NCBI RefSeq assembly: GCF_988243305.1
Contig: NZ_OZ547136.1
Reading direction: 5' to 3' (one strand)
DNA length: 64,000 bases
In this document: positions 2,971 through 31,611 of the stretch, in pieces
How the letters are laid out: every line of letters begins with the position of its first letter
Position numbering within the stretch: the first letter of the stretch is position 1
The notes under the pieces: model-generated
What the model was told of the DNA's origin: nothing
Databases searched by the model: none
Seen by the model: the letters and a program-made list of their open reading frames with translations, nothing else
Program-made: the position numbers and the translations under genes

Positions 2971-5397
2971 ATGATGAAAATCCATACCACAGAGGCGCTC
3001 ATGAAGGCTGAAATCAGCCGTAGAAGTCTGATGAAAACCTCCGCACTTGGCAGTCTTGCGCTGGCAAGCAGTGCTTTCACTCTGCCATTTTCCCAAATGG
3101 TCCGAGCGGCAGAGGCACCGGTAGAAGAGAAAGCGGTCTGGAGTTCCTGCACCGTTAACTGCGGGAGCCGCTGTCTGTTACGTTTGCATGTGAAAGATGA
3201 CACCGTGTACTGGGTGGAGTCTGATACGACAGGTGACGACGTCTACGGTAATCATCAGGTTCGGGCATGTTTACGCGGGCGCTCTATCCGCCGACGGATG
3301 AATCATCCTGACAGGTTGAAATATCCCATGAAGCGCGTCGGCAAGCGCGGTGAAGGTAAATTTGAACGGATAAGTTGGGATGAAGCCCTGGATACCATCA
3401 GTGATAATCTTCGGCGGATCCTTGAAGATTACGGCAATGAGGCTGTACATGTCCTGTACGGAACAGGCGTAGATGGCGGAAACATCACCAACTCGAACGT
3501 CCCGTACCGTCTGATGAACTCTTGCGGTGGTTTTCTCAGTCGCTATGGCAGCTACAGTACCGCTCAAATCAGTGCCGCAATGAGTTATATGTTCGGTGCC
3601 AATGATGGCAACAGCCCGGATGATATAGCCAATACGAAACTGGTCGTTATGTTCGGAAATAACCCGGCAGAAACCCGGATGAGCGGCGGTGGTGTCACTT
3701 ACTACGTCGAGCAAGCCCGAGAACGTTCAAACGCACGCATGATCGTCATCGATCCACGTTATAACGACACTGCTGCCGGGCGTGAAGATGAATGGCTGCC
3801 AATTCGCCCAGGCACCGATGGCGCACTGGCCTGTGCGATTGCCTGGGTACTGATTACTGAAAACATGGTCGATCAGCCATTTCTCGACAAATATTGTGTT
3901 GGTTACGATGAAAAAACGCTGCCCGCCAACGCACCACGTAACGCGCATTATAAAGCCTATATTCTGGGCGAAGGGCCTGACGGCATAGCTAAAACGCCGG
4001 AATGGGCAGCAAAAATCACCAGCATCCCGGCAGAAAAAATTATCCATTTGGCACGAGAGATCGGTTCAGCAAAACCTGCTTATATTTGTCAGGGTTGGGG
4101 GCCACAACGACACTCCAACGGCGAACAAACGTCCCGCGCTATTGCCATGCTTTCCGTTCTCACCGGTAACGTCGGCATAAACGGCGGCAACTCAGGTGTA
4201 CGCGAAGGTAGCTGGGATCTGGGGGTAGAATGGTTCCCGATGCTCGAGAATCCTGTTAAAACGCAGATTTCCGTCTTTACATGGACAGATGCCATCGACC
4301 ATGGTACGGAAATGACCGCGACCCGTGATGGTGTTCGTGGAAAAGAAAAACTGGATGTCCCCATCAAGTTTTTATGGTGCTACGCCAGTAACACATTGAT
4401 CAATCAACATGGCGACATCAATCACACCCATGAGGTGCTTCAGGATGACAGCAAGTGCGAGATGATTGTTGGCATTGACCACTTCATGACTGCCTCGGCT
4501 AAGTATTGCGATATCCTGTTGCCCGACCTGATGCCAACAGAGCAAGAAGACCTTATCTCTCACGAATCTGCCGGGAATATGGGCTATGTGATCCTCGCCC
4601 AACCCGCAACCTCAGCAAAATTTGAACGCAAACCCATCTACTGGATGCTGAGTGAAGTCGCCAAACGCTTAGGACCAGACGTTTATCAAACCTTTACTGA
4701 AGGCCGCAGTCAGCACGAATGGATCAAATATCTCCATGCGAAAACGAAGGAACGTAACCCTGAGATGCCCGACTACGAGGAGATGAAAACGACCGGGATC
4801 TTTAAGAAAAAATGCCCGGAAGAACACTACGTCGCTTTCCGCGCATTCCGTGAAGATCCACAGGCAAACCCGTTGAAAACACCTTCGGGGAAAATCGAAA
4901 TTTATTCTGAACGACTGGCGACGATTGCGGATACCTGGGAATTGAAAAAAGATGAAATTATTCATCCCCTTCCTGCGTATACCCCAGGTTTTGATGGCTG
5001 GGACGATCCCCTGCGGAAAACCTATCCACTGCAGCTAACGGGCTTCCACTACAAAGCGCGTACCCACTCCAGCTACGGCAATATTGATGTGTTACAGCAG
5101 GCCTGCCCACAAGAGGTGTGGATCAACCCTATTGATGCTCAGGCACGCGGTATCCGTCATGGCGATACCGTGCGGGTATTTAACAATAATGGAGAAATGC
5201 TGATTGCCGCAAAAGTGACTCCGCGTATTCTGCCTGGCGTTACCGCCATCGGGCAAGGTGCGTGGCTTAAAGCGGATATGTTTGGTGACCGGGTCGATCA
5301 CGGCGGCAGTATTAATATTCTGACCTCTCACCGCCCTTCACCGCTGGCAAAGGGAAACCCGTCGCACAGCAATCTTGTCCAGATCGAAAAGGTTTAA
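2971..5397 (+). CDS. ynfF: Molybdopterin oxidoreductase catalytic subunit, second DmsA paralog
   Basis: 808-aa ORF highly similar to the preceding ORF; Tat motif SRRSLMKT; start may be the ATG at 2974. Confidence 0.9.
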   Translation: MMKIHTTEALMKAEISRRSLMKTSALGSLALASSAFTLPFSQMVRAAEAPVEEKAVWSSCTVNCGSRCLLRLHVKDDTVYWVESDTTGDDVYGNHQVRACLRGRSIRRRMNHPDRLKYPMKRVGKRGEGKFERISWDEALDTISDNLRRILEDYGNEAVHVLYGTGVDGGNITNSNVPYRLMNSCGGFLSRYGSYSTAQISAAMSYMFGANDGNSPDDIANTKLVVMFGNNPAETRMSGGGVTYYVEQARERSNARMIVIDPRYNDTAAGREDEWLPIRPGTDGALACAIAWVLITENMVDQPFLDKYCVGYDEKTLPANAPRNAHYKAYILGEGPDGIAKTPEWAAKITSIPAEKIIHLAREIGSAKPAYICQGWGPQRHSNGEQTSRAIAMLSVLTGNVGINGGNSGVREGSWDLGVEWFPMLENPVKTQISVFTWTDAIDHGTEMTATRDGVRGKEKLDVPIKFLWCYASNTLINQHGDINHTHEVLQDDSKCEMIVGIDHFMTASAKYCDILLPDLMPTEQEDLISHESAGNMGYVILAQPATSAKFERKPIYWMLSEVAKRLGPDVYQTFTEGRSQHEWIKYLHAKTKERNPEMPDYEEMKTTGIFKKKCPEEHYVAFRAFREDPQANPLKTPSGKIEIYSERLATIADTWELKKDEIIHPLPAYTPGFDGWDDPLRKTYPLQLTGFHYKARTHSSYGNIDVLQQACPQEVWINPIDAQARGIRHGDTVRVFNNNGEMLIAAKVTPRILPGVTAIGQGAWLKADMFGDRVDHGGSINILTSHRPSPLAKGNPSHSNLVQIEKV

Positions 5398-24563: not shown

Positions 24564-24833
24564 CTATCCCCATTTCGGCATAAGTGCGATCGACTGCCTT
24601 TTCAGGTCTCCGTAATTATCCGGTGGCTCCGGTGGCCTCTGTGCCTTCCTGGAACATTCCAGCCGTCGCATCGTGATGTGATGCCGTTCCTTGTCTGTCT
24701 CCACCAGCAGCATGACTTCACCCCATCGCGCCGACGCCCTCCGGTAAAATCCTTTAGCCTCGAGTTCCTCCGCTATGCGGTCATGTACCATCCTCACCCC
24801 CTCAGAACGGAATACCGTCACCGTAAGGGTCAT
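24564..24833 (-). CDS. Hypothetical protein downstream of ssb; start uncertain (24833 or 24791)
   Basis: ORF in track 24564..24911; candidate ATG starts at 24833 (GGGAGG upstream) and 24791 (GTGAGG upstream). Confidence 0.4.
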   Translation of the reverse strand: MTLTVTVFRSEGVRMVHDRIAEELEAKGFYRRASARWGEVMLLVETDKERHHITMRRLECSRKAQRPPEPPDNYGDLKRQSIALMPKWG

Positions 24834-25212
24834 CGCCTCCCGCTGGTGGCTGATTACCCTGTGTGCCTGTGGTTTTGCGTCTGTTCCCGCCAGGACGTGC
24901 CGCACGGGCACTGATTACGCTGTCTGCAATAACCTGCCAGCCCTGCCGCGTTTCTCCGTTCTGTCCGGTCCACTGGCTTACCTGCATCGTGCCGGATACG
25001 CTGGCAACATCGCCTTTTTGATGTTTAGCCAGGAAGTCGGCCTGTTTGCCAAATGCGATGACCGATAACCATAACGTCGCCTGTCCGTCCTGTGCCTGGC
25101 TGCATGGCAAAGATACCGCCATACGCGCCAGCGTCATCGGTGTGCCCTTGCTGGTCTGTTTTACCTGCGGGTCGTCCACCAGCCGCCCGTAAGCGGCTAT
25201 CTGTGCCGTCAT
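24802..25212 (-). CDS. ssb: Single-stranded DNA-binding protein
   Basis: 136-aa ORF with Gly/Gln-rich linker and C-terminal acidic tail ending DDPYGDGIPF, the hallmark SSB C-terminus. Confidence 0.8.
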   Translation of the reverse strand: MTAQIAAYGRLVDDPQVKQTSKGTPMTLARMAVSLPCSQAQDGQATLWLSVIAFGKQADFLAKHQKGDVASVSGTMQVSQWTGQNGETRQGWQVIADSVISARAARPGGNRRKTTGTQGNQPPAGGDDPYGDGIPF

Positions 25213-25490: not shown

Positions 25491-25662
25491 TTTTTCAAGC
25501 GTCTCACTTCGTCGCAGTTGGGATTTTCGGTTTTTCTATGTGTGTGTTTCATAAGTATTTTTTTACCCCTCACTTTTGAGGATGTATACAGGTCGAAAAG
25601 TGAGGGAGAGCGGGCTAATTTTGGCCCTCTTTCTATCCCCCTCGCTTTTGCTCCTCACTTTT
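25470..25662. repeat. Iteron array (CTCACTTTT, about 7 copies including one inverted); putative replication origin
   Basis: Copies at 25473, 25486, 25502 (imperfect), 25569, 25596 (inverted), 25640 (imperfect), 25654; immediately 3' of the replication ATPase gene. Confidence 0.6.
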
Positions 25663-27061
25663 ATAGCGGCGCTACATCATCCCCATCGATACGAATAACC
25701 CCATCTTTTTCCAGCTTGTACAGCCAGCGCCGGAAGTTTTTCATTTCATACCCCAGTTTTTTCATGTCATCACGTAACAGCGGGATCGTGCACTTGTCGC
25801 CGTTCTGTGTGCGTGAACGGATGCACCCCCATAGCGCGGTATGGTTTTCCGTCTTGTTCCCTGCCTCCTCGATGCGCTCCAGTTCAACAGGAGGGCGCGG
25901 ATCATCCACCACTACCAGCGACGTGATTAATTCACCGTCAGCGTCGGTAAAAAGCTCCACCACGCGTAAGTCATATGCGGCTTCTTTGAGTTCCTCCGCG
26001 TCCTTCATTTTGGTGCATGAGATAACCAGCGCTTCGCTTCCTGCGTCCTCCCTGCGTATCCGGTATTCAGCATCCAGCGAAGCACGAAATGCACTGGAAC
26101 CGCGCGCGCCTTTCGTCTCATCCTTGCCGGAATGGTGAACCACCAGCACCGTGGCCCCTGTGCGTCGTTTCAGTTCGTCACAACCACGGATAAACGCCCC
26201 CATATCACGGGAATCATTTTCATCATTCCCACCAAAGCAACGCGCCAGCGTATCCAGAATAATCATGCGTACAGGTTTACCCGTTTCCCGCTCCACCTGA
26301 CGGGCAGCGATAACCATTTCATCAACATCAAGCGGGGCAGCCGGAAAGATGGGGCGGTTTACCAGATACAGATTTTTCACCTGCTCATCGTGCACAACCT
26401 CCCAGGCTTTTACACGACGCGGAACACCTATACCGCCTTCACCAACCACATAGAGAACCGCACCATGTGCAACCCTGCGGCCTCCCCACTGGCGACCAGT
26501 GGCAACATGGCACGCCCACGATCCGGCAAGGAATGATTTATAGGACCCGCTAGCCCCGTATATGCTGCATAGCGATACCGCCGGAATAATCCCCTTAACC
26601 ACGTAATCCAGTTGCGTGTCGTATCCGGTAGATCCAACGCTCATCGGTAGCGTGGTTTTTCGCTGGTGGTTTTTTTCTTCCACCGGCTCTTTCCCGCGCA
26701 CCCGTTCCAGGTATTCGCGCCAGTTCTCCCGCATATGGCTGTGCATCCCTTCGGGGTAATAATTCGCATCAGTTACACCCGCCGCCGCCAGCTTGTGCGC
26801 AATGGCATTAATATTTGATGGCCTGATGTGGCCTGCCTTGTACAGCCGGACACAATAGCGCCCCTCGTCGATGATTCTCAGGTCTGCCAGTTCATCCAGT
26901 TGATCATCAGCCAGCACAACGGGAGGCACATTATCGCCAGCCAGTCGCCCGTCCTGTTCCTGCCACTGTTTCGCATGTGCCCAGGCATCACTACCCGCAA
27001 AAATAATGACTTCGGTCATCTTGTCGTAAGGCTGTTTTTTTAAGTTCGGTGCGCTTTTCAT
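25661..27061 (-). CDS. Replication initiator with RecA-fold ATPase domain (satellite Pri-Rep-like)
   Basis: 466-aa ORF with Walker A-like YGASGSYKS and downstream ILDTL Walker B-like segment. Confidence 0.65.
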   Translation of the reverse strand: MKSAPNLKKQPYDKMTEVIIFAGSDAWAHAKQWQEQDGRLAGDNVPPVVLADDQLDELADLRIIDEGRYCVRLYKAGHIRPSNINAIAHKLAAAGVTDANYYPEGMHSHMRENWREYLERVRGKEPVEEKNHQRKTTLPMSVGSTGYDTQLDYVVKGIIPAVSLCSIYGASGSYKSFLAGSWACHVATGRQWGGRRVAHGAVLYVVGEGGIGVPRRVKAWEVVHDEQVKNLYLVNRPIFPAAPLDVDEMVIAARQVERETGKPVRMIILDTLARCFGGNDENDSRDMGAFIRGCDELKRRTGATVLVVHHSGKDETKGARGSSAFRASLDAEYRIRREDAGSEALVISCTKMKDAEELKEAAYDLRVVELFTDADGELITSLVVVDDPRPPVELERIEEAGNKTENHTALWGCIRSRTQNGDKCTIPLLRDDMKKLGYEMKNFRRWLYKLEKDGVIRIDGDDVAPL

Positions 27062-27357
27062 TTCTTGCCCCTGAATCCGTTAATCATGGTTTTCAGCTTC
27101 TGGATGTTTGCCCGTGCCCTGGCGTTGCTGGTGGGCACGTTATGCGGCGCGGTCTGTACCAGAGAAAAATCACGCCGGAACTGATAAACAGGCATCACGC
27201 AATCATATTCGTAACCTTCACGGCGGTAGGTTACGCGCCGTTCTTCCACGCCCTTAATCATTACCGTGCCGCCGTACTGGTCGCGGTAAATATCACCGCG
27301 CGTAAATTTAGGGTGAGTGTTGCCACTGGCAGTTAAGCCAGAATATTTAAGTTTCAT
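27058..27357 (-). CDS. Hypothetical protein, translationally coupled to the replication gene
   Basis: 99-aa ORF whose stop overlaps the replication ATPase start by 4 nt. Confidence 0.45.
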   Translation of the reverse strand: MKLKYSGLTASGNTHPKFTRGDIYRDQYGGTVMIKGVEERRVTYRREGYEYDCVMPVYQFRRDFSLVQTAPHNVPTSNARARANIQKLKTMINGFRGKK

Positions 27358-27362
27358 TATTT

Positions 27363-27596
27363 TTATTCTCCGGTGTGCTGTTCTTTATATCTGTCGTGCA
27401 ATAGATCTATTTCTTGCAGTTCCATTATTACAGGCTCAAGAAGCGTTATTAATGCCGTGGCAATTCTTGATTTTTGTTTGTCGCGTTCATTGTCGCCAAG
27501 TGTTTCAAGCCATATGCGCAATATTTCCAGCATGTTTTCACTGTGAGAAAGTGCAAGAAATACGCGGTCTATTGTTTCGTGGTAAATATCACGCAT
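27363..27596 (-). CDS. Hypothetical small protein
   Basis: 77-aa ORF tightly packed between neighbouring ORFs on the same strand. Confidence 0.4.
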   Translation of the reverse strand: MRDIYHETIDRVFLALSHSENMLEILRIWLETLGDNERDKQKSRIATALITLLEPVIMELQEIDLLHDRYKEQHTGE

Positions 27597-27597
27597 A

Positions 27598-28034
27598 TTA
27601 ATCCCCGTCCGTCGTTTTTCTTAAAATAACCTCTGTCACGAAATCAGCATAATCGGCGGCGATATTCAGTACATCAAGCCCCGTTGATTTATATTCTCTC
27701 GTGGAAAGTAAGAAAAAAGCCGCTCTAATAAGTTCTGGCATTGACGAAAGCGCATCAGCCGCATCATCAGGAACGCCGGAAAATTCCTGTTTCAGGGAAT
27801 TAAAACGATCATCACGCATAACCCCCCCCCATTTTCACAATCAGCAACAAGAATATTTTTAGCGTCATTCAGCGACCGCGTTGCGATGTATCGGATACAT
27901 TCCAGGGCGAACTGTGTCCGGTCTTTCTGTTCTTCTCCCTGCGCAAGCTCTGCAGTGCATTCAATATCGATAAGCGCGTGCATCAGCGTAGTGAGCGCGG
28001 CGGCTGCTGCGTCCGGTGTGGTTTTATTGCACAT
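27598..28034 (-). pseudogene. Gene split into two frames by a G9 homopolymer tract (27822-27830); frameshifted or phase-variable
   Basis: Upstream part starts at ATG 28034 with AGGAGG RBS and ends 27792; downstream part 27598..27819 begins 3 nt after the tract in the +1 frame. Confidence 0.55.
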
Positions 28035-28314
28035 GGCACACCTCCTGACGAATACGGGCGGCGAATACAGCAACACAACCGGACGGGCAACGGCTACGCG
28101 CTTCGCGTTCCGTCCAGGCGGTTACGTGGATGATTTGAGATTCTCCGGCACTTAGTGCCAGAAAACGCCACACAAAGGCCGTTTGTGTGTGTATAAGGCG
28201 TGGTATATGATTTACGGCAACCATAACGGCTCCTAGTTTACGTTGTTGGTTAGACGCCCCGTATGTGTTCCCAGCACTGCGGGGCGTTGATTTTTGTGTA
28301 ATGGCAAGTACAAT

Positions 28315-28358
28315 GGTAATTACCATGTAGGTATAGTAATGAAGGGTAATTACCATGT
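28315..28358. promoter_or_regulatory. Two copies of 14-bp repeat GGTAATTACCATGT, each containing the perfect palindrome GGTAATTACC; putative operator
   Basis: Copies at 28315-28328 and 28345-28358, 30 bp apart; second copy overlaps the ATG of the small plus-strand gene; region lies between divergent gene sets. Confidence 0.55.
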
Positions 28359-28528
28359 CAACACCATTAGAAAAACGTTCGCCTCCATACCAAATGCGAT
28401 TACCGGAAGACTTCAGAGCGCAGCTAGAAGAAGCAGCTAAGGCCGATGGCGACACATCTTTAGCCACTTGGATTAAACGCGTTCTCCGCAAAGAATTACA
28501 GCAACGCGGCATAGAGCCAAAAGGTTGA
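28355..28528 (+). CDS. Small putative DNA-binding protein (Arc/MetJ-type ribbon-helix-helix-like), 57 aa
   Basis: ATG 28355 to TGA 28526-28528: MSTPLEKRSPPYQMRLPEDFRAQLEEAAKADGDTSLATWIKRVLRKELQQRGIEPKG; one of only two plus-strand genes in the island. Confidence 0.5.
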   Translation: MSTPLEKRSPPYQMRLPEDFRAQLEEAAKADGDTSLATWIKRVLRKELQQRGIEPKG

Positions 28529-28549
28529 ATTTCAGAAGGAGATAAAATA

Positions 28550-28702
28550 ATGAACTGGCTGTTACATACCCTCCCAGGTCGCATTCTCATTGCACTAATT
28601 ATTTTATGGATTTTGTACCAATTCGGTTTTTTCGATTCGCTTTGGAAGCCTGACTGTTCCGTTAACCCTGGCGATGTACTGAAAGGCTGTAAAAATGGCT
28701 GA
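28550..28702 (+). CDS. Small hydrophobic peptide (50 aa), predicted membrane-associated
   Basis: AGGAG RBS 8 nt upstream of ATG 28550; MNWLLHTLPGRILIALIILWILYQFGFF... single hydrophobic segment. Confidence 0.45.
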   Translation: MNWLLHTLPGRILIALIILWILYQFGFFDSLWKPDCSVNPGDVLKGCKNG

Positions 28703-29057
28703 TCAGGGTTACTCCCTGTAATGCCTTTAACTGGCCCTCTTAAAGAGGGTTGGTTATCTTCGCAGCTCTCTACGTTTTTCGTCGGAACCTCTGAACCTAA
28801 GCAGTGTTGATGTTCAGGAGAACCCGAATACTGTTCGTGTTCGTTGCTCGCCAATTCTCGCGTTTCGCGATAATCAAAATGATTCAATGGGTTGAGATGT
28901 CCGTACGTTAAACGTACGCGGTTAATTTGTACATGCGAATTTCGTCGGCTCAAATTCTGCGCAACCCTGCTTGAGTTATGCAAATAGCACGCGGCTAACT
29001 CACAAGGATTTGAGCGCCCCCAAACGGGGGAGCGCAAAATTTTAGGCATAAGACGCA

Positions 29058-29771
29058 TCAGCGAATCTCCAACACTGACGATGAAGTGATCAGGCTGGCG
29101 AACGCATCCATACGGCGGGCAACCTCACGCACCGCATCGCCTGGACTCATGTCATTACGCACCGCCTCATTAAAGGCCGCCTGTTCGATTTTCTGCATCA
29201 CTACCAACAGCCCCAATTGCTGTTCGTCTGCGGTACCGCGTTCACCATCAGACAAACCAGCCACGCGGTTTTCAGCGCGGGCCAGATTGATGTAATGGTG
29301 CCGTTGTGCGCCCAGAGCTTTTAATCTGTCGCGGCTTTCGTGATAGCCAGGCAGGTACTCACGGCGGATAGGTTCTGCGGCGCGGCGCTTAGTGAATGCC
29401 TTCGTAACATCCAGTTTGAACTGGTTAATACGCTCAGGATCACGCCCTCGGGTGATACGCAGCAGATAGTCGAGCTGCGGCTCATTCAGCAGATAACTAA
29501 TCTCAGGACGCCCACGCTTTCGGCCGGATTTTCCCGATTTCAAATCGGTTAATTCCTTGAGTGACTGACGAGGCAGTGATCCCAGCTCGCGCAATCTGCT
29601 CTGGTGCGATTTAATCGTCGCGCTTAAGCTTTCATGTTGTATTCCGGCTCGCTCTGAAATAACGCGGGAATCGATACGCGGCTCCGATTTGTGATTAATT
29701 AAAATATCGCTCTGGCTGGCTTCAGGGCGAACGAATCCCCGCCCACGTTCTGGCGTATATTCAATCTTCAT
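29058..29771 (-). CDS. Hypothetical protein, possible phage-type regulatory protein
   Basis: 237-aa ORF between AlpA and the divergent control region; basic central segment GRKRGRP; no confident family assignment. Confidence 0.4.
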   Translation of the reverse strand: MKIEYTPERGRGFVRPEASQSDILINHKSEPRIDSRVISERAGIQHESLSATIKSHQSRLRELGSLPRQSLKELTDLKSGKSGRKRGRPEISYLLNEPQLDYLLRITRGRDPERINQFKLDVTKAFTKRRAAEPIRREYLPGYHESRDRLKALGAQRHHYINLARAENRVAGLSDGERGTADEQQLGLLVVMQKIEQAAFNEAVRNDMSPGDAVREVARRMDAFASLITSSSVLEIR

Positions 29772-29828
29772 GGTTATAGCTCTGTGTTCAGATGATTGAT
29801 GTGTGGCGGCTGCGTGCCGCCAGCGTGA

Positions 29829-30017
29829 TTAATGAACTGCCTTGCAGCTATCCTTCCAGGCCAGAACCTCGGATAAAGACCAGCCAACGGAACGACCGCC
29901 AAGTTTACGACGTGATGGGAATTGTCCGGCCTTTTCCAGGCGGTAGCGACACGTACGGCTAAGGCCGGTTAGTTTTTCGCATTCTTTTTCACGTATAAAC
30001 CGATCAGTGCTTAACAC
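29829..30017 (-). CDS. alpA: AlpA-family phage transcriptional regulator / excisionase-like HTH protein
   Basis: 62-aa ORF with AlpA-like signature ...LTGLSRTCRYRLEKAGQFPSRRKLGGRSVGW...; adjacent to integrase. Confidence 0.7.
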   Translation of the reverse strand: MLSTDRFIREKECEKLTGLSRTCRYRLEKAGQFPSRRKLGGRSVGWSLSEVLAWKDSCKAVH

Positions 30018-30381
30018 TATTGCCCCCTTTCGTTTCTTAAAGAGTCATCAGGTGTCTTATTGTGTCGTATTGTTCCCGCTAGAGTGATAAATGGCAAATA
30101 CTGAGGATGTATGATTTACAGAAAATGAAACAGTAAGAATAAAATCTTTTAAATTCATGTTAATACAAAGGCATAAAATATTGTTTCATGCCTTTTTTCT
30201 CGCTCTTTAAAGAGTGATTCGCTAGTGTATAAAAAACCAGTAACGCATTAAAAATCAGCTACTTATAAATCCGTACGCTTTTTCGCCTCTTGTTCGTAGT
30301 TGTTCCACATTGTTGCTCATTGTTGCACGTTGTATCTGTTCGCATATACAGTATGCGCATACTGAAAAAACACGAAAAAAA

Positions 30382-31611
30382 TTATTTTCTTCTGGCTACT
30401 GGTAGCGTGGTTACGTTTTCATGTGTTCCCGCCAGTATCCCTAACCGCTCCGTCCACATATCCAGCGCATTGCGTTTAGCATCCAGATAACGGGAATGAT
30501 TATAAACTCGCTGCATTCCTGGCATCTGGTGGCCTGTAAGCTGCTCCACGACATGCGGATCAACGCCTAAATCGTTCAGCATGGTTGTAAAGGTGCGCCG
30601 GATGTCATGCAGTGACCAGTGAGGATGATTAAGCCTCCTGTGCGCTAATCTTCCATACTGCGATACGCTGGCCTCCTGTTTCACTTCCCCCAGCAATAAG
30701 CCCGTGTGCCTGTTCTGCTCCACCAGCTGCGTGACGAACGGCAGGATCGCTTCCGGTATGGGCCGGAATATTGCGACCTTCGTTTTGCTGTGCTCCTTCG
30801 GAACGGTCCATAGCATTTCCGTAAAATCCCACTCCCCGATCTCCGATAACCTCAGTTCTACCGTTCTGGCTCCGAAGACAATCAGGAGGCGGATTAACGC
30901 GACGTAGTAAGGGGAGAATATTTTTTTGTCCAGTGCCTGCAATAATTCGCCAAGTTCTTTGTTACTTAAGACACGTTCGCTTATATCCGGTTTTTTCCCA
31001 ACGTCCGCCACGTTCAGATCGTCCAGAACGTTGCTGATTGCATAGCGCCGCCTACGGCAGAACTTAAGCGCCTGTTTGCACGCCTGTAGCACGAATCCGG
31101 CAGTAACAGGCGTTCGCTTTGCCACCTGGTCAAAACAGGCCAGCCAGTGCCGTAGCTCGCATTTATCCAGCGGCATAGCACCAATCTGCTGTATTACGTG
31201 ATTATTAAGTCGCCTTTTCAGGGCGATATAATCCACGCGGTTTTCCTTTACGTAATACTCAAGCCAGTAGGTGAGCGCATCGCCAACCGTTACGGGCTTT
31301 AACGCTTCCTGTACGGTGTAATTCATCTCATGACGTGGATTTTTCCCCTCAGCCAGCCATGTGCGACACTGTGCGGCTTTTTCCCTGGCTGCTTTCAGGC
31401 TCAGATCAGGATAACTTCCCAGCTTAATGCGTTCGGGTCGTGTCTCCCTTCCCGTTCCGGCCCTGTATGTGAAATACCAGGTCAATTTCCCTGATGTTAA
31501 ATATTTCACGCTCAGGTTTCCGCCATCACTATAAAACGTGTTTTTCTCCGCTGGCTTACCATGAAGTTTCCTTAGCAAGGTATCGCTCAGTTTGTTCATT
31601 GCTCTGCTCAC
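30382..31611 (-). CDS. int: Tyrosine site-specific integrase (P4-type)
   Basis: 409-aa ORF; C-terminal catalytic region with HDIRRTF (H-x-x-R) and a downstream tyrosine; located at the island right end. Confidence 0.85.
   Translation of the reverse strand: MSRAMNKLSDTLLRKLHGKPAEKNTFYSDGGNLSVKYLTSGKLTWYFTYRAGTGRETRPERIKLGSYPDLSLKAAREKAAQCRTWLAEGKNPRHEMNYTVQEALKPVTVGDALTYWLEYYVKENRVDYIALKRRLNNHVIQQIGAMPLDKCELRHWLACFDQVAKRTPVTAGFVLQACKQALKFCRRRRYAISNVLDDLNVADVGKKPDISERVLSNKELGELLQALDKKIFSPYYVALIRLLIVFGARTVELRLSEIGEWDFTEMLWTVPKEHSKTKVAIFRPIPEAILPFVTQLVEQNRHTGLLLGEVKQEASVSQYGRLAHRRLNHPHWSLHDIRRTFTTMLNDLGVDPHVVEQLTGHQMPGMQRVYNHSRYLDAKRNALDMWTERLGILAGTHENVTTLPVARRK

What the first reader, a model, noticed from the sequence alone, without database searches (positions are those of the whole stretch)
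27598..28034. G9 homopolymer splits a gene into two overlapping frames (frameshift or phase variation)
On the coding (minus) strand a run of nine G (27822-27830) sits in an ORF that starts at ATG 28034 behind a strong AGGAGG RBS and reads …NGGGLCVMIVLIP-stop at 27792. In the +1 frame an ATG three nucleotides after the tract opens a second ORF (27819..27598, 73 aa). One extra G would fuse the two halves into a single ~156-aa protein. This is the first gene downstream of the divergent control region, so its on/off state could gate the early leftward operon.
Basis: seen in the sequence. Interest (0 to 1): 0.6.

Follow-up and report, generated by a model that had tools for sequence, protein, structure and literature searches.

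The report
Hypervariable G-run joining two satellite genes
A run of nine G's sits where one small gene of a phage-satellite island ends and the next begins; its length differs between E. coli lineages (5 to 12 G) and sometimes fuses the two genes, but the second gene always keeps its own start, so this is a mutation-prone gene junction and not a demonstrated on/off switch.

Summary
The G9 tract (27822-27830, minus strand) and both ORFs are real. The locus lies in the early operon of a capsid-forming PICI (EcCIEDL933/CP-933C-like), in this order: promoter, Icd-like gene, ORF1, ORF2, ORF3, RgdR (DUF4222), RepA helicase. Tract length is polymorphic. Public assemblies with the window's exact ORF1 haplotype carry G5 to G12; G8 and G9 each occur on at least 1000 contigs. 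G7 and G10 give fused 144/145-aa proteins. Loci with identical 450-nt flanks often differ in tract length. Length is nevertheless clade-structured: O157:H7 G7, B2 strains G8, O26/O111 G9. ORF2 is an autonomous cistron. Distant relatives are separate ~75-aa proteins that all start at the same Met. ORF2 also follows unrelated genes, behind ordinary Shine-Dalgarno sequences with start/stop overlaps, and ORF1-like genes occur without ORF2. The G-run occupies ORF2's Shine-Dalgarno position inside the 3' end of ORF1. The window's G9 is a common natural allele that only replaces the ORF1 tail (YA becomes LCVMIVLIP). ORF1 is not the first gene of the operon, and nothing supports an operon on/off gate. 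Ordinary kind, undescribed locus, modest interest.

The parts
27822..27830 (-). G9 homopolymer. It encodes the Gly-Gly-Gly C-terminal part of ORF1 and lies 2 nt upstream of the ORF2 ATG, at the Shine-Dalgarno position of ORF2.
   Evidence: The same tract is G5-G12 in relatives.
27792..28034 (-). ORF1, G9 allele: 80 aa, ...ADCENGGGLCVMIVLIP. ATG 28034 is preceded by AGGAGG.
   Evidence: phrog_5146 and the N-terminal half of phrog_2512. The exact protein is on at least 1000 public contigs. Annotated as CDS WP_001342316.1 in O26:H11 11368.
27598..27819 (-). ORF2, 73 aa, MRDDRFNSLKQEFSG...; an autonomous cistron.
   Evidence: phrog_24341 and the C-terminal half of phrog_2512. The exact protein is on at least 1000 contigs. 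All distant ORF2-only relatives start at this Met.
27812..27819 (-). ATGCGTGA start/stop-overlap motif. In G8 alleles the ORF1 stop TGA lies inside it (8-nt overlap). In the window's G9 allele the TGA is out of frame for ORF1.
   Evidence: The same 8-nt overlap type occurs in distant relatives.
27746..27871 (-). Conserved junction block (ORF1 C-terminus, tract, ORF2 N-terminus). Nucleotide diversity is about 0-0.05 from 11 nt upstream of the tract to 75 nt downstream and 0.10-0.18 in the 30 nt further upstream, against 0.3-0.47 in mid-ORF1.
   Evidence: 72 loci, 54 haplotypes; protein alignment.
28024..28224 (-). Icd-like 66-aa ORF, the real first gene of the operon. Its stop overlaps the ORF1 ATG by 11 nt (ATGTGCAATAA).
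   Evidence: NF033153, 64.7 bits against a cutoff of 25; sequence.
28333..28361 (-). Sigma-70-like promoter TTGACA-17-TACTAT driving the leftward operon.
   Evidence: 10 of 12 matches. A consensus match only.
27363..27596 (-). ORF3, 77 aa; also starts ATGCGTGA.
   Evidence: phrog_2196.
27058..27357 (-). DUF4222 protein, 99 aa, RGD at residues 20-22. It is a homolog of RgdR (ECs1581), a LEE/T3S regulator.
   Evidence: PMC3378721.
25661..27061 (-). RepA-family replicative helicase of the island.
   Evidence: phrog_2850; annotation in relatives.

Best explanation
The G-run is the Shine-Dalgarno region of an autonomous small gene (ORF2), embedded in the last codons (Gly-Gly-Gly) of the preceding small gene (ORF1). 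Both belong to the AlpA-controlled early operon of an E. coli-type capsid-forming PICI.

The ancestral design is two translationally coupled cistrons with an 8-nt ATGnnTGA start/stop overlap. The G8 allele reproduces that design.

A G/C homopolymer of 7-10 slips during replication, so the tract has drifted between lineages (G5-G12). It cycles the ORF1 C-terminus through three states:
- G8, G11, G5: stop inside ATGCGTGA.
- G9, G12, G6: a 9-residue out-of-frame tail, LCVMIVLIP, replaces YA. This is the window's allele.
- G7, G10: in-frame fusion to ORF2 through a Gly linker.

In every state ORF2 retains its own ATG and a G-rich SD, and the downstream genes (ORF3, rgdR, repA) remain coupled. All three states are therefore tolerated, and each is fixed in large clades.

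Shown here: the polymorphism, its clade structure, the autonomy and ancestral separateness of the two genes, and the position of the run relative to the start codon. Inferred: SD function of the run, replication slippage as the cause, and functional tolerance of the three states.
For: - Tract census for the window's exact ORF1 haplotype: G8 on at least 1000 contigs, G9 on at least 1000, G7 34, G10 13, G11 47, G12 8, G6 5, G5 11.
- IMG/VR loci: G7 19, G8 23, G9 12 plus 2 more whose ORF2 start reads ATGCTTGA, G10 3, G11 1. Interrupted tracts are locked in split frames: GGGGTGGG, GGGGGTGG, GGGGAGGGGGGG.
- Even sample of complete genomes: G7 18, G8 15, G9 10, G10 1, sorted by clade. About 225 genomes with O157-type flanks are G7, against about 30 with G8.
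- 6 of 10 multi-member haplotypes with identical 450-nt flanks differ in tract length.
- A profile search of 1.84 billion cluster representatives finds only 2 fused representatives. About 20 match ORF1 only, and about 15 match ORF2 only; all of the latter start at profile position 73, the Met of MRDD.
- ORF2 follows a different 127-aa gene in 13 loci, as CAGGGGGGTAAAC-ATGCGTGA.
- Distant ORF2-like genes follow unrelated genes, with AGGAGG or GGAGGG 6-7 nt upstream and ATGA or ATGTATGA overlaps.
- Distant ORF1-like genes are followed directly by ORF3-like genes through ATGCATAA or ATGCCTAA overlaps, with no homopolymer.
- PHROGs holds separate ORF1, ORF2 and fused families.
- An A8 run in the same operon of relatives is nearly invariant (25 A8, 1 A7). 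The G-run is therefore specifically unstable.
Against: - The junction block is the most conserved part of both genes and the pure G-run persists in most lineages. That could mean the run itself is selected, not merely tolerated.
- Fused forms are numerous and fixed in O157:H7, so fusion might be functional.
- G11 (47 contigs) outnumbers G10 (13) on the exact haplotype, which hints at selection on frame. The fused count is diluted, however, because it also requires an exact ORF2 match; P0014, with the same ORF1, adds 152 contigs.
- No expression data exist. SD function and neutrality are inferred.
- Some tract calls in long-read assemblies may be errors, for example EcN_Sk G7 against G8 in other Nissle assemblies.
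Confidence: 0.7

Rival explanations
1. This is a true contingency (phase-variable) locus. The G-run is maintained by selection because slippage reversibly switches the island between states (split or fused ORF1-ORF2, or altered coupling to rgdR/repA), which diversifies satellite behaviour or host virulence regulation.
For: - Tract length varies on identical flanks, and all three frames are common.
- The pure run and its flanks are the most conserved part of the locus.
- Rare within-strain differences exist: EcN_Sk G7 against Nissle G8, and O111:H8 8234 G10 against other O111 G9.
- The LEE regulator gene rgdR lies about 240 nt downstream of ORF2's stop (about 460 nt from the tract) in the same operon (PMC3378721).
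Against: - Length is clade-stable: O157:H7 G7 in every sampled genome.
- No state removes the ORF2 start or creates a long untranslated gap.
- Some lineages have interrupted the run without losing the genes.
- E. coli is mismatch-repair proficient, so G8-9 slippage is expected to be far slower than in classical phase-variable species. This rests on established knowledge and was not measured here.
Confidence: 0.13
2. The locus uses programmed recoding. On G8 or G9 alleles, ribosomal frameshifting (-1 on G9, +1 on G8) or RNA-polymerase slippage on the G-run produces a fraction of ORF1-ORF2 fusion protein alongside the separate products, as with dnaX or phage tail-chaperone G/GT.
For: - A long G-run is in principle slippery for tRNA-Gly and for RNA polymerase.
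- The fused product is evidently viable, since it is fixed in O157:H7.
- G GGG GGG fits the X XXY YYZ form.
Against: - Tract length is not conserved.
- The downstream ORF has its own conserved start and SD.
- Distant relatives have no slippery run.
- The junction RNA shows no significant structure (z = -1.6) and matches no Rfam family.
Confidence: 0.07
3. The ancestral gene is the fused ~145-aa ORF, and the window's G9 is simply an inactivating frameshift (a pseudogene) or an assembly error in a homopolymer.
For: - RefSeq annotates a G9 allele in strain H19 as one 'frameshifted' pseudogene.
- Many fused proteins exist.
- Homopolymers are error-prone in long-read assemblies.
Against: - The exact G9 ORF1 product is on at least 1000 independent contigs, as many as G8.
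- G9 is consistent across O26/O111/O103 complete genomes.
- Distant relatives are split, not fused.
- ORF1 and ORF2 occur independently of each other.
- Other RefSeq records annotate two intact CDS for G9.
Confidence: 0.05

Closest known systems
Simple-sequence-repeat contingency loci (poly-G/C phase variation in Neisseria, Haemophilus, Campylobacter)
   Same: A G homopolymer inside coding sequence whose length changes shift the reading frame. Length is polymorphic between isolates with otherwise identical flanks.
   Different: No frame abolishes a product. The downstream gene has its own start. Length is stable within clones. The host is mismatch-repair-proficient E. coli. No switching has been shown within a culture.
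Translationally coupled overlapping cistrons (ATGA / ATGnnTGA start-stop overlaps with the SD inside the upstream gene)
   Same: G8 alleles and all distant relatives have the upstream stop inside or next to the downstream start, with a G-rich SD in the upstream coding region.
   Different: Here the SD has become a pure 7-10-nt homopolymer. The coupling geometry itself is therefore mutationally unstable. In the window's G9 allele ORF1 stops 28 nt past the ORF2 start.
Programmed frameshift or transcriptional-slippage genes (dnaX, IS element transposases, phage tail chaperone G/GT)
   Same: Two overlapping frames are joined at a slippery homopolymer, and the fused product exists in nature.
   Different: The tract length is not conserved, the downstream ORF initiates independently, and no stimulatory structure was found.
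cf-PICI EcCIEDL933 / CP-933C / O-island 51 of E. coli O157:H7
   Same: The same island type and the same operon: int, alpA, Icd-like, small ORFs, rgdR (DUF4222), repA, ssb, then capsid, portal and terminase genes (PMC3378721; 10.1101/2022.09.08.507074).
   Different: The O157:H7 copy carries G7 (one fused 154-aa CDS); the window carries G9 (split). The window's mosaic of modules is not found at 80% coverage or more in any complete E. coli genome.

Membership tests
SSR-mediated phase-variable (contingency) locus | A homopolymer or short repeat lies in a coding region or promoter | tested here: met
   G9 inside the ORF1 3' end, next to the ORF2 start.
SSR-mediated phase-variable (contingency) locus | Repeat length is polymorphic among otherwise identical alleles | tested here: met
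   G5-G12 on one ORF1 haplotype. 6 of 10 identical-flank haplotypes differ in length.
SSR-mediated phase-variable (contingency) locus | High-frequency, reversible switching occurs within a clone or culture | tested here: inconclusive
   Only assemblies are available. O157:H7-type flanks: about 225 genomes G7 against about 30 G8. There are isolated within-strain differences. No read-level data.
SSR-mediated phase-variable (contingency) locus | A length change turns expression of a functional product ON or OFF | tested here: not met
   In all frames ORF1 keeps residues 1-70 or 1-71 and ORF2 keeps its own ATG and SD. ORF2 is autonomous in relatives.
Programmed ribosomal frameshift / transcriptional slippage gene | The slippery site is conserved in sequence and length | tested here: not met
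   Length is G5-G12, with interrupted variants. The run is absent from distant relatives.
Programmed ribosomal frameshift / transcriptional slippage gene | The downstream frame lacks independent initiation | tested here: not met
   A conserved ATG with SD is present. Distant ORF2-only proteins all start at that Met.
Programmed ribosomal frameshift / transcriptional slippage gene | A stimulatory RNA structure lies downstream | tested here: not met
   The MFE z-score is -1.6; 15 of 200 shuffles fold as well. No Rfam hit.
Programmed ribosomal frameshift / transcriptional slippage gene | A trans-frame product is made from a single allele | not testable with these tools
   Needs protein or RNA data.
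Translationally coupled overlapping cistrons | The upstream stop overlaps or abuts the downstream start | tested here: met
   8-nt ATGCGTGA overlap in G8 alleles. ATGnnTAA, ATGA or ATGTATGA overlaps in distant relatives. In the window's G9 allele the overlap is 28 nt.
Translationally coupled overlapping cistrons | The SD of the downstream gene lies inside the upstream coding sequence | tested here: met
   G-run at -3 to -11 from the ORF2 ATG. GGGGGG, AGGAGG or GGAGGG at equivalent positions in other contexts. SD activity itself was not tested.
Translationally coupled overlapping cistrons | Downstream translation depends on upstream translation | not testable with these tools
   Needs reporter assays.
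Capsid-forming PICI (cf-PICI) | int, alpA and rep, plus its own major capsid protein, protease, portal, head-closure protein, TerS and TerL | tested here: met
   PHROG hits for all of these between 17527 and 31611.
Capsid-forming PICI (cf-PICI) | No tail genes; induced and mobilised by a helper phage | not tested
   The region left of 17527 was not examined. Induction is not testable here.

The most novel reading that the evidence does not exclude
The G-run is a selected, heritable three-state switch of cf-PICI/PICI early operons. By changing whether ORF1 and ORF2 are coupled, uncoupled or fused, it would tune the dosage of the downstream LEE regulator RgdR and the RepA helicase. Lineage-specific settings (O157:H7 fused, O55:H7 and B2 strains coupled, O26/O111 extended) would then contribute to differences in satellite inducibility or type III secretion regulation between pathotypes.
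Probability: 0.1. Interest if true: 0.55.

Novelty: new member of a known kind. Interest (0 to 1): 0.3.

Why it matters
The practical value lies in annotation and comparative genomics. The same locus is annotated in RefSeq as two genes, as one gene, or as a frameshifted pseudogene, depending only on tract length. PHROGs holds fused and split families for it. Knowing that this is a slippage-prone junction between two autonomous cistrons prevents false pseudogene calls and false reports of novel fusion proteins in thousands of E. coli genomes.

Biologically, it is a clean natural example of recurrent gene fusion and fission driven by a homopolymer that doubles as a Shine-Dalgarno sequence. It sits about 240 nt upstream of rgdR, a known regulator of EHEC type III secretion, so a modest regulatory effect is worth one targeted experiment.

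Tried and rejected
- Identity-band counts from short BLAST queries could not separate exact matches from one-difference matches. I used record spans in evenly spaced samples and exact-protein look-ups instead.
- The AlphaFold2 model of the fused protein was low-confidence (pLDDT 61, pTM 0.43, linker 71-96 below 50). No fold search was attempted, and the model says nothing reliable about whether the halves interact.
- No function could be assigned to ORF1 or ORF2: Pfam, NCBIfam and tblastn against INPHARED phages all gave nothing.
- ORF1, ORF2 and ORF3 show no pairwise similarity, so the idea of tandem paralogs is rejected.
- RNA folding of the junction and Rfam give no evidence for a structured element that would explain the conserved block.
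- I could not identify the window's source genome. No complete E. coli genome covers 80% or more of 25600-30100, and the window has no tRNA genes.
- Literature searches for a described homopolymer or phase variation in P4-like satellites or PICIs found nothing.

Full report
**1. Observation**

- Nine consecutive G at 27830-27822.
- ORF1 starts at ATG 28034, preceded by AGGAGG with a 6-nt spacer. It reads ...ADCENGGGLCVMIVLIP and stops at 27794-27792.
- ORF2 starts at ATG 27819, two bases (TT) after the tract, and runs to 27598 (73 aa).
- ORF2 lies in the -1/+2 frame relative to ORF1. In-silico G10 or G7 yields one continuous ORF of 145 or 144 aa, not about 156.
- The tract is the only G/C homopolymer of 7 or more in the window. 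All 25 other runs are A/T of 7-8.
- An iid model expects about 0.4 such runs in 64 kb, so the run by itself is not statistically striking.

**2. Context**

The locus belongs to a capsid-forming phage-inducible chromosomal island of the EcCIEDL933 / CP-933C / OI-51 type. PHROG and NCBIfam searches identify these genes:

| Feature | Coordinates | Strand |
|---|---|---|
| Integrase | 31611..30382 | - |
| AlpA-like excisionase/regulator | 30017..29829 | - |
| 237-aa regulator | 29771..29058 | - |
| Divergent Arc/YlcI-like gene | 28355..28528 | + |
| Icd-like 66-aa ORF | 28224..28024 | - |
| ORF1, ORF2, ORF3 | 28034..27363 | - |
| DUF4222 protein | 27357..27058 | - |
| RepA-family helicase | 27061..25661 | - |
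| SSB | 25212..24802 | - |
| Major head protein, protease, portal, head-closure, TerS, TerL | down to 17527 | - |

- A sigma-70-like promoter, TTGACA-17-TACTAT, lies at 28361-28333.
- ORF1 is therefore the second gene of the leftward operon, not the first. The Icd-like ORF overlaps the ORF1 ATG by 11 nt.
- The DUF4222 protein carries RGD at residues 20-22 and is 99 aa. It matches RgdR/ECs1581, the OI-51-encoded activator of LEE/type III secretion (PMC3378721).
- The cf-PICI literature (10.1101/2022.09.08.507074) and the EcCIMP1 paper do not mention ORF1, ORF2 or any frameshift.
- Searches for a described homopolymer or phase variation in these satellites found nothing.

**3. The tract is polymorphic**

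- The first three relatives fetched already differ. Strains ATCC 25922 and CFT073 have G8: two CDS, with the ORF1 stop TGA inside ATGCGTGA, an 8-nt overlap. NCTC9112 has G7: one fused 148-aa CDS.
- An exact-sequence look-up in about 15 billion proteins, holding the window's ORF1 N-terminal haplotype constant, gives:

| Tract | ORF1 C-terminus | Contigs |
|---|---|---|
| G5 | ...GGYA | 11 |
| G6 | ...GGLCVMIVLIP | 5 |
| G7 | fused | 34 |
| G10 | fused | 13 |
| G11 | ...GGGGYA | 47 |
| G12 | ...GGGGLCVMIVLIP | 8 |

- Further fused proteins carry other ORF2 modules: 152 (P0014), 212 (P0032) and 258 (P0038) contigs, and 566 (P0137) contigs. P0014 and P0038 have the window's ORF1 half.
- Eighty IMG/VR loci give G7 19, G8 23, G9 12 (plus 2 more whose ORF2 start reads ATGCTTGA), G10 3 and G11 1. 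This sample is biased toward fused forms. It also contains interrupted tracts: GGGGTGGG and GGGGGTGG (both in the 8-frame) and GGGGAGGGGGGG.
- An evenly spaced sample of 60 of 895 complete E. coli genomes contains 44 records with the junction: G7 18, G8 15, G9 10, G10 1.
- Of the ten haplotypes that are identical over 450 nt of flank and seen more than once, six differ in tract length. The tract therefore changes faster than any nearby point substitution.
- An A8 run at the preceding gene junction in relatives is almost invariant (25 A8, 1 A7). The instability is specific to the G-run.

**4. It does not behave like a rapid switch**

- Length sorts by clade: O157:H7 and O145:H28 carry G7; O55:H7 and B2 strains (Nissle, CFT073, ATCC 25922) carry G8; O26, O111 and O103 carry G9.
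- With O157:H7-type flanks, 15 of 15 evenly spaced top rows (about 225 genomes) are G7. Only 2 rows (about 30 genomes, from other serotypes) are G8.
- Within-strain discordance is rare: one Nissle derivative with G7 against G8 in all other Nissle assemblies. It could be a sequencing error.

**5. The two ORFs are autonomous genes and the split state is ancestral**

- A profile of 46 fused proteins was searched against 1.84 billion cluster representatives and gave 55 hits. Only two are fused. About 20 proteins of 70-93 aa match only the ORF1 half. About 15 proteins of 69-78 aa match only the ORF2 half, and every one begins at profile position 73, the Met of MRDD.
- In 13 IMG/VR loci ORF2 follows an unrelated 127-aa gene, as ...CAGGGGGGTAAAC-ATGCGTGA. 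That is a G6 Shine-Dalgarno at 5-nt spacing, with the upstream stop again inside ATGCGTGA.
- Distant ORF2-like genes follow other unrelated genes, with AGGAGG or GGAGGG 6-7 nt upstream and ATGA or ATGTATGA overlaps.
- Distant ORF1-like genes end ...GHA...HHA or ...CDA, have no Gly run, and are followed directly by an ORF3-like gene through ATGCATAA or ATGCCTAA overlaps behind caggaggtggggc or cagggggcgcacc.
- ORF1 and ORF2 are thus shuffled as independent modules. The protein alignment shows at least two ORF1 module types and at least two ORF2 module types joined at an invariant junction. PHROGs contains ORF1-only, ORF2-only and fused families.
- The G-run occupies positions -3 to -11 from the ORF2 ATG, where these other contexts carry a conventional SD.

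**6. Mechanistic reading**

The best-supported model is a chain of small, translationally coupled cistrons in which one SD has become a pure G homopolymer. The G8 allele reproduces the ancestral 8-nt overlap. Replication slippage then moves the ORF1 reading frame among three outcomes:
- G8, G11, G5: stop inside ATGCGTGA.
- G9, G12, G6: ORF1 reads 9 out-of-frame codons and stops 28 nt into ORF2. This is the window.
- G7, G10: ORF1 is fused to ORF2 through Gly-Gly(-Gly)-Val.

ORF1 residues 1-70 and the ORF2 start and SD are preserved in all three outcomes. That explains why each state is fixed in successful clades and why some lineages have locked the 8-frame by a G-to-T interruption.

Inferred rather than shown: that the run acts as an SD, that slippage is replicative, and that the states are functionally near-equivalent.

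**7. What remains unexplained**

- The junction block is the most conserved stretch of both genes. Nucleotide diversity is about 0-0.05 from 11 nt upstream of the tract to 75 nt downstream, and 0.10-0.18 in the 30 nt further upstream, against 0.3-0.47 in mid-ORF1.
- The same block is the least confident part of the AlphaFold model (residues 71-96 below pLDDT 50).
- The RNA fold is not significant (z = -1.6) and no Rfam family matches.
- The conservation could reflect a functional N-terminal peptide of ORF2, constraint from the overlapping frames, or use of the block as a recombination junction between modules. A selected role for the run itself is therefore not excluded.

**8. Rivals**

- An adaptive contingency switch is possible but lacks its defining features, namely rapid within-clone switching and ON/OFF of a product.
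- Programmed frameshifting or transcriptional slippage is unlikely. Tract length is not conserved, ORF2 initiates independently, and no stimulatory structure is detectable.
- A pseudogene or assembly error is contradicted by at least 1000 independent contigs carrying the identical G9 product and by the split state of distant relatives.
- RefSeq itself is inconsistent. G9 is annotated as two CDS in O26:H11 11368 and as one 'frameshifted' pseudogene in strain H19.

**9. Verdict**

This is an undescribed instance of a known phenomenon, a slippage-prone homopolymer, here doubling as an SD at a gene junction. It has practical relevance for annotation and a low-probability link to RgdR dosage.

Noticed in passing
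L001 2791-3021 / 3011-3232 (ATCC 25922); L049; proteins P0003, P0004, P0015, P0119: In relatives that carry an extra small gene (ORF0, MSQEITLQQ..., 76 aa) before ORF1, the ORF0/ORF1 junction contains an A8 run (AACGAAAAAAAATGCGGAGGGG). A7 fuses ORF0 to ORF1, and with a fused G-tract gives 217-224-aa triple fusions. A8 occurs in 25 loci and A7 in 1, so this run is far more stable than the G-run. ORF0 is absent from the window.
   Followed up: partly
window 27058-27357 (-): The 99-aa DUF4222 ORF two genes downstream of ORF2 has RGD at residues 20-22. It corresponds to RgdR/ECs1581, the OI-51 (CP-933C) activator of LEE/type III secretion and repressor of motility (PMC3378721).
   Followed up: partly
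window 28313-28356 (-): ATGGTAATTACC occurs twice. One copy overlaps the -35 hexamer of the leftward promoter (28356-28345). The second (28326-28313) extends to a perfect 14-bp palindrome, ATGGTAATTACCAT, just downstream of the -10 hexamer. These are likely operators for the divergent Arc/YlcI-like repressor (28355-28528 +).
   Followed up: no
window 28255-28286 (-): A GC-rich stem (CGCCCCG ... CGGGGCG) lies in the leader between the promoter and the Icd-like ORF. A terminator-like hairpin with a T-tail lies inside the Icd-like ORF (28189-28169). Both are reminiscent of leader-based transcription-termination control in P4-type immunity regions.
   Followed up: no
window 27831-27833 (-), and G8 relatives: An ATG is formed by AAT+G immediately 5' of the tract. 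In G8 alleles it is in frame with ORF2 (MGGV-MRDD...), giving an alternative start 4 codons upstream. In G9 it opens only MGGGYA*.
   Followed up: no
window 27746-27871 (-): The ORF1-C-terminus/ORF2-N-terminus block is nearly invariant at the nucleotide level across mosaic modules. The corresponding peptide (residues 71-96 of the fusion) is the lowest-confidence part of the AlphaFold model. The cause of the conservation is unexplained.
   Followed up: partly
window 25600-30100: No complete E. coli genome in RefSeq covers 80% or more of this 4.5-kb stretch (best 73% at 97.9%). The window's combination of regulatory and small-ORF modules is a mosaic not represented there. The window contains no tRNA gene, so the integration site is not a tRNA within the window.
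   Followed up: partly
RefSeq records NC_013361.1 (L091) and NZ_AP027165.1 (L092): The same G9 allele is annotated as two intact CDS in one genome and as a single 'frameshifted' pseudogene in another. G7 alleles are annotated as one normal CDS (O157:H7, L084).
   Followed up: yes
NZ_CP172017.1 (EcN_Sk) vs other Nissle 1917 assemblies: One Nissle 1917 derivative assembly has G7, while all other Nissle assemblies sampled have G8. This is either a real slippage event in a laboratory lineage or a homopolymer assembly error.
   Followed up: no
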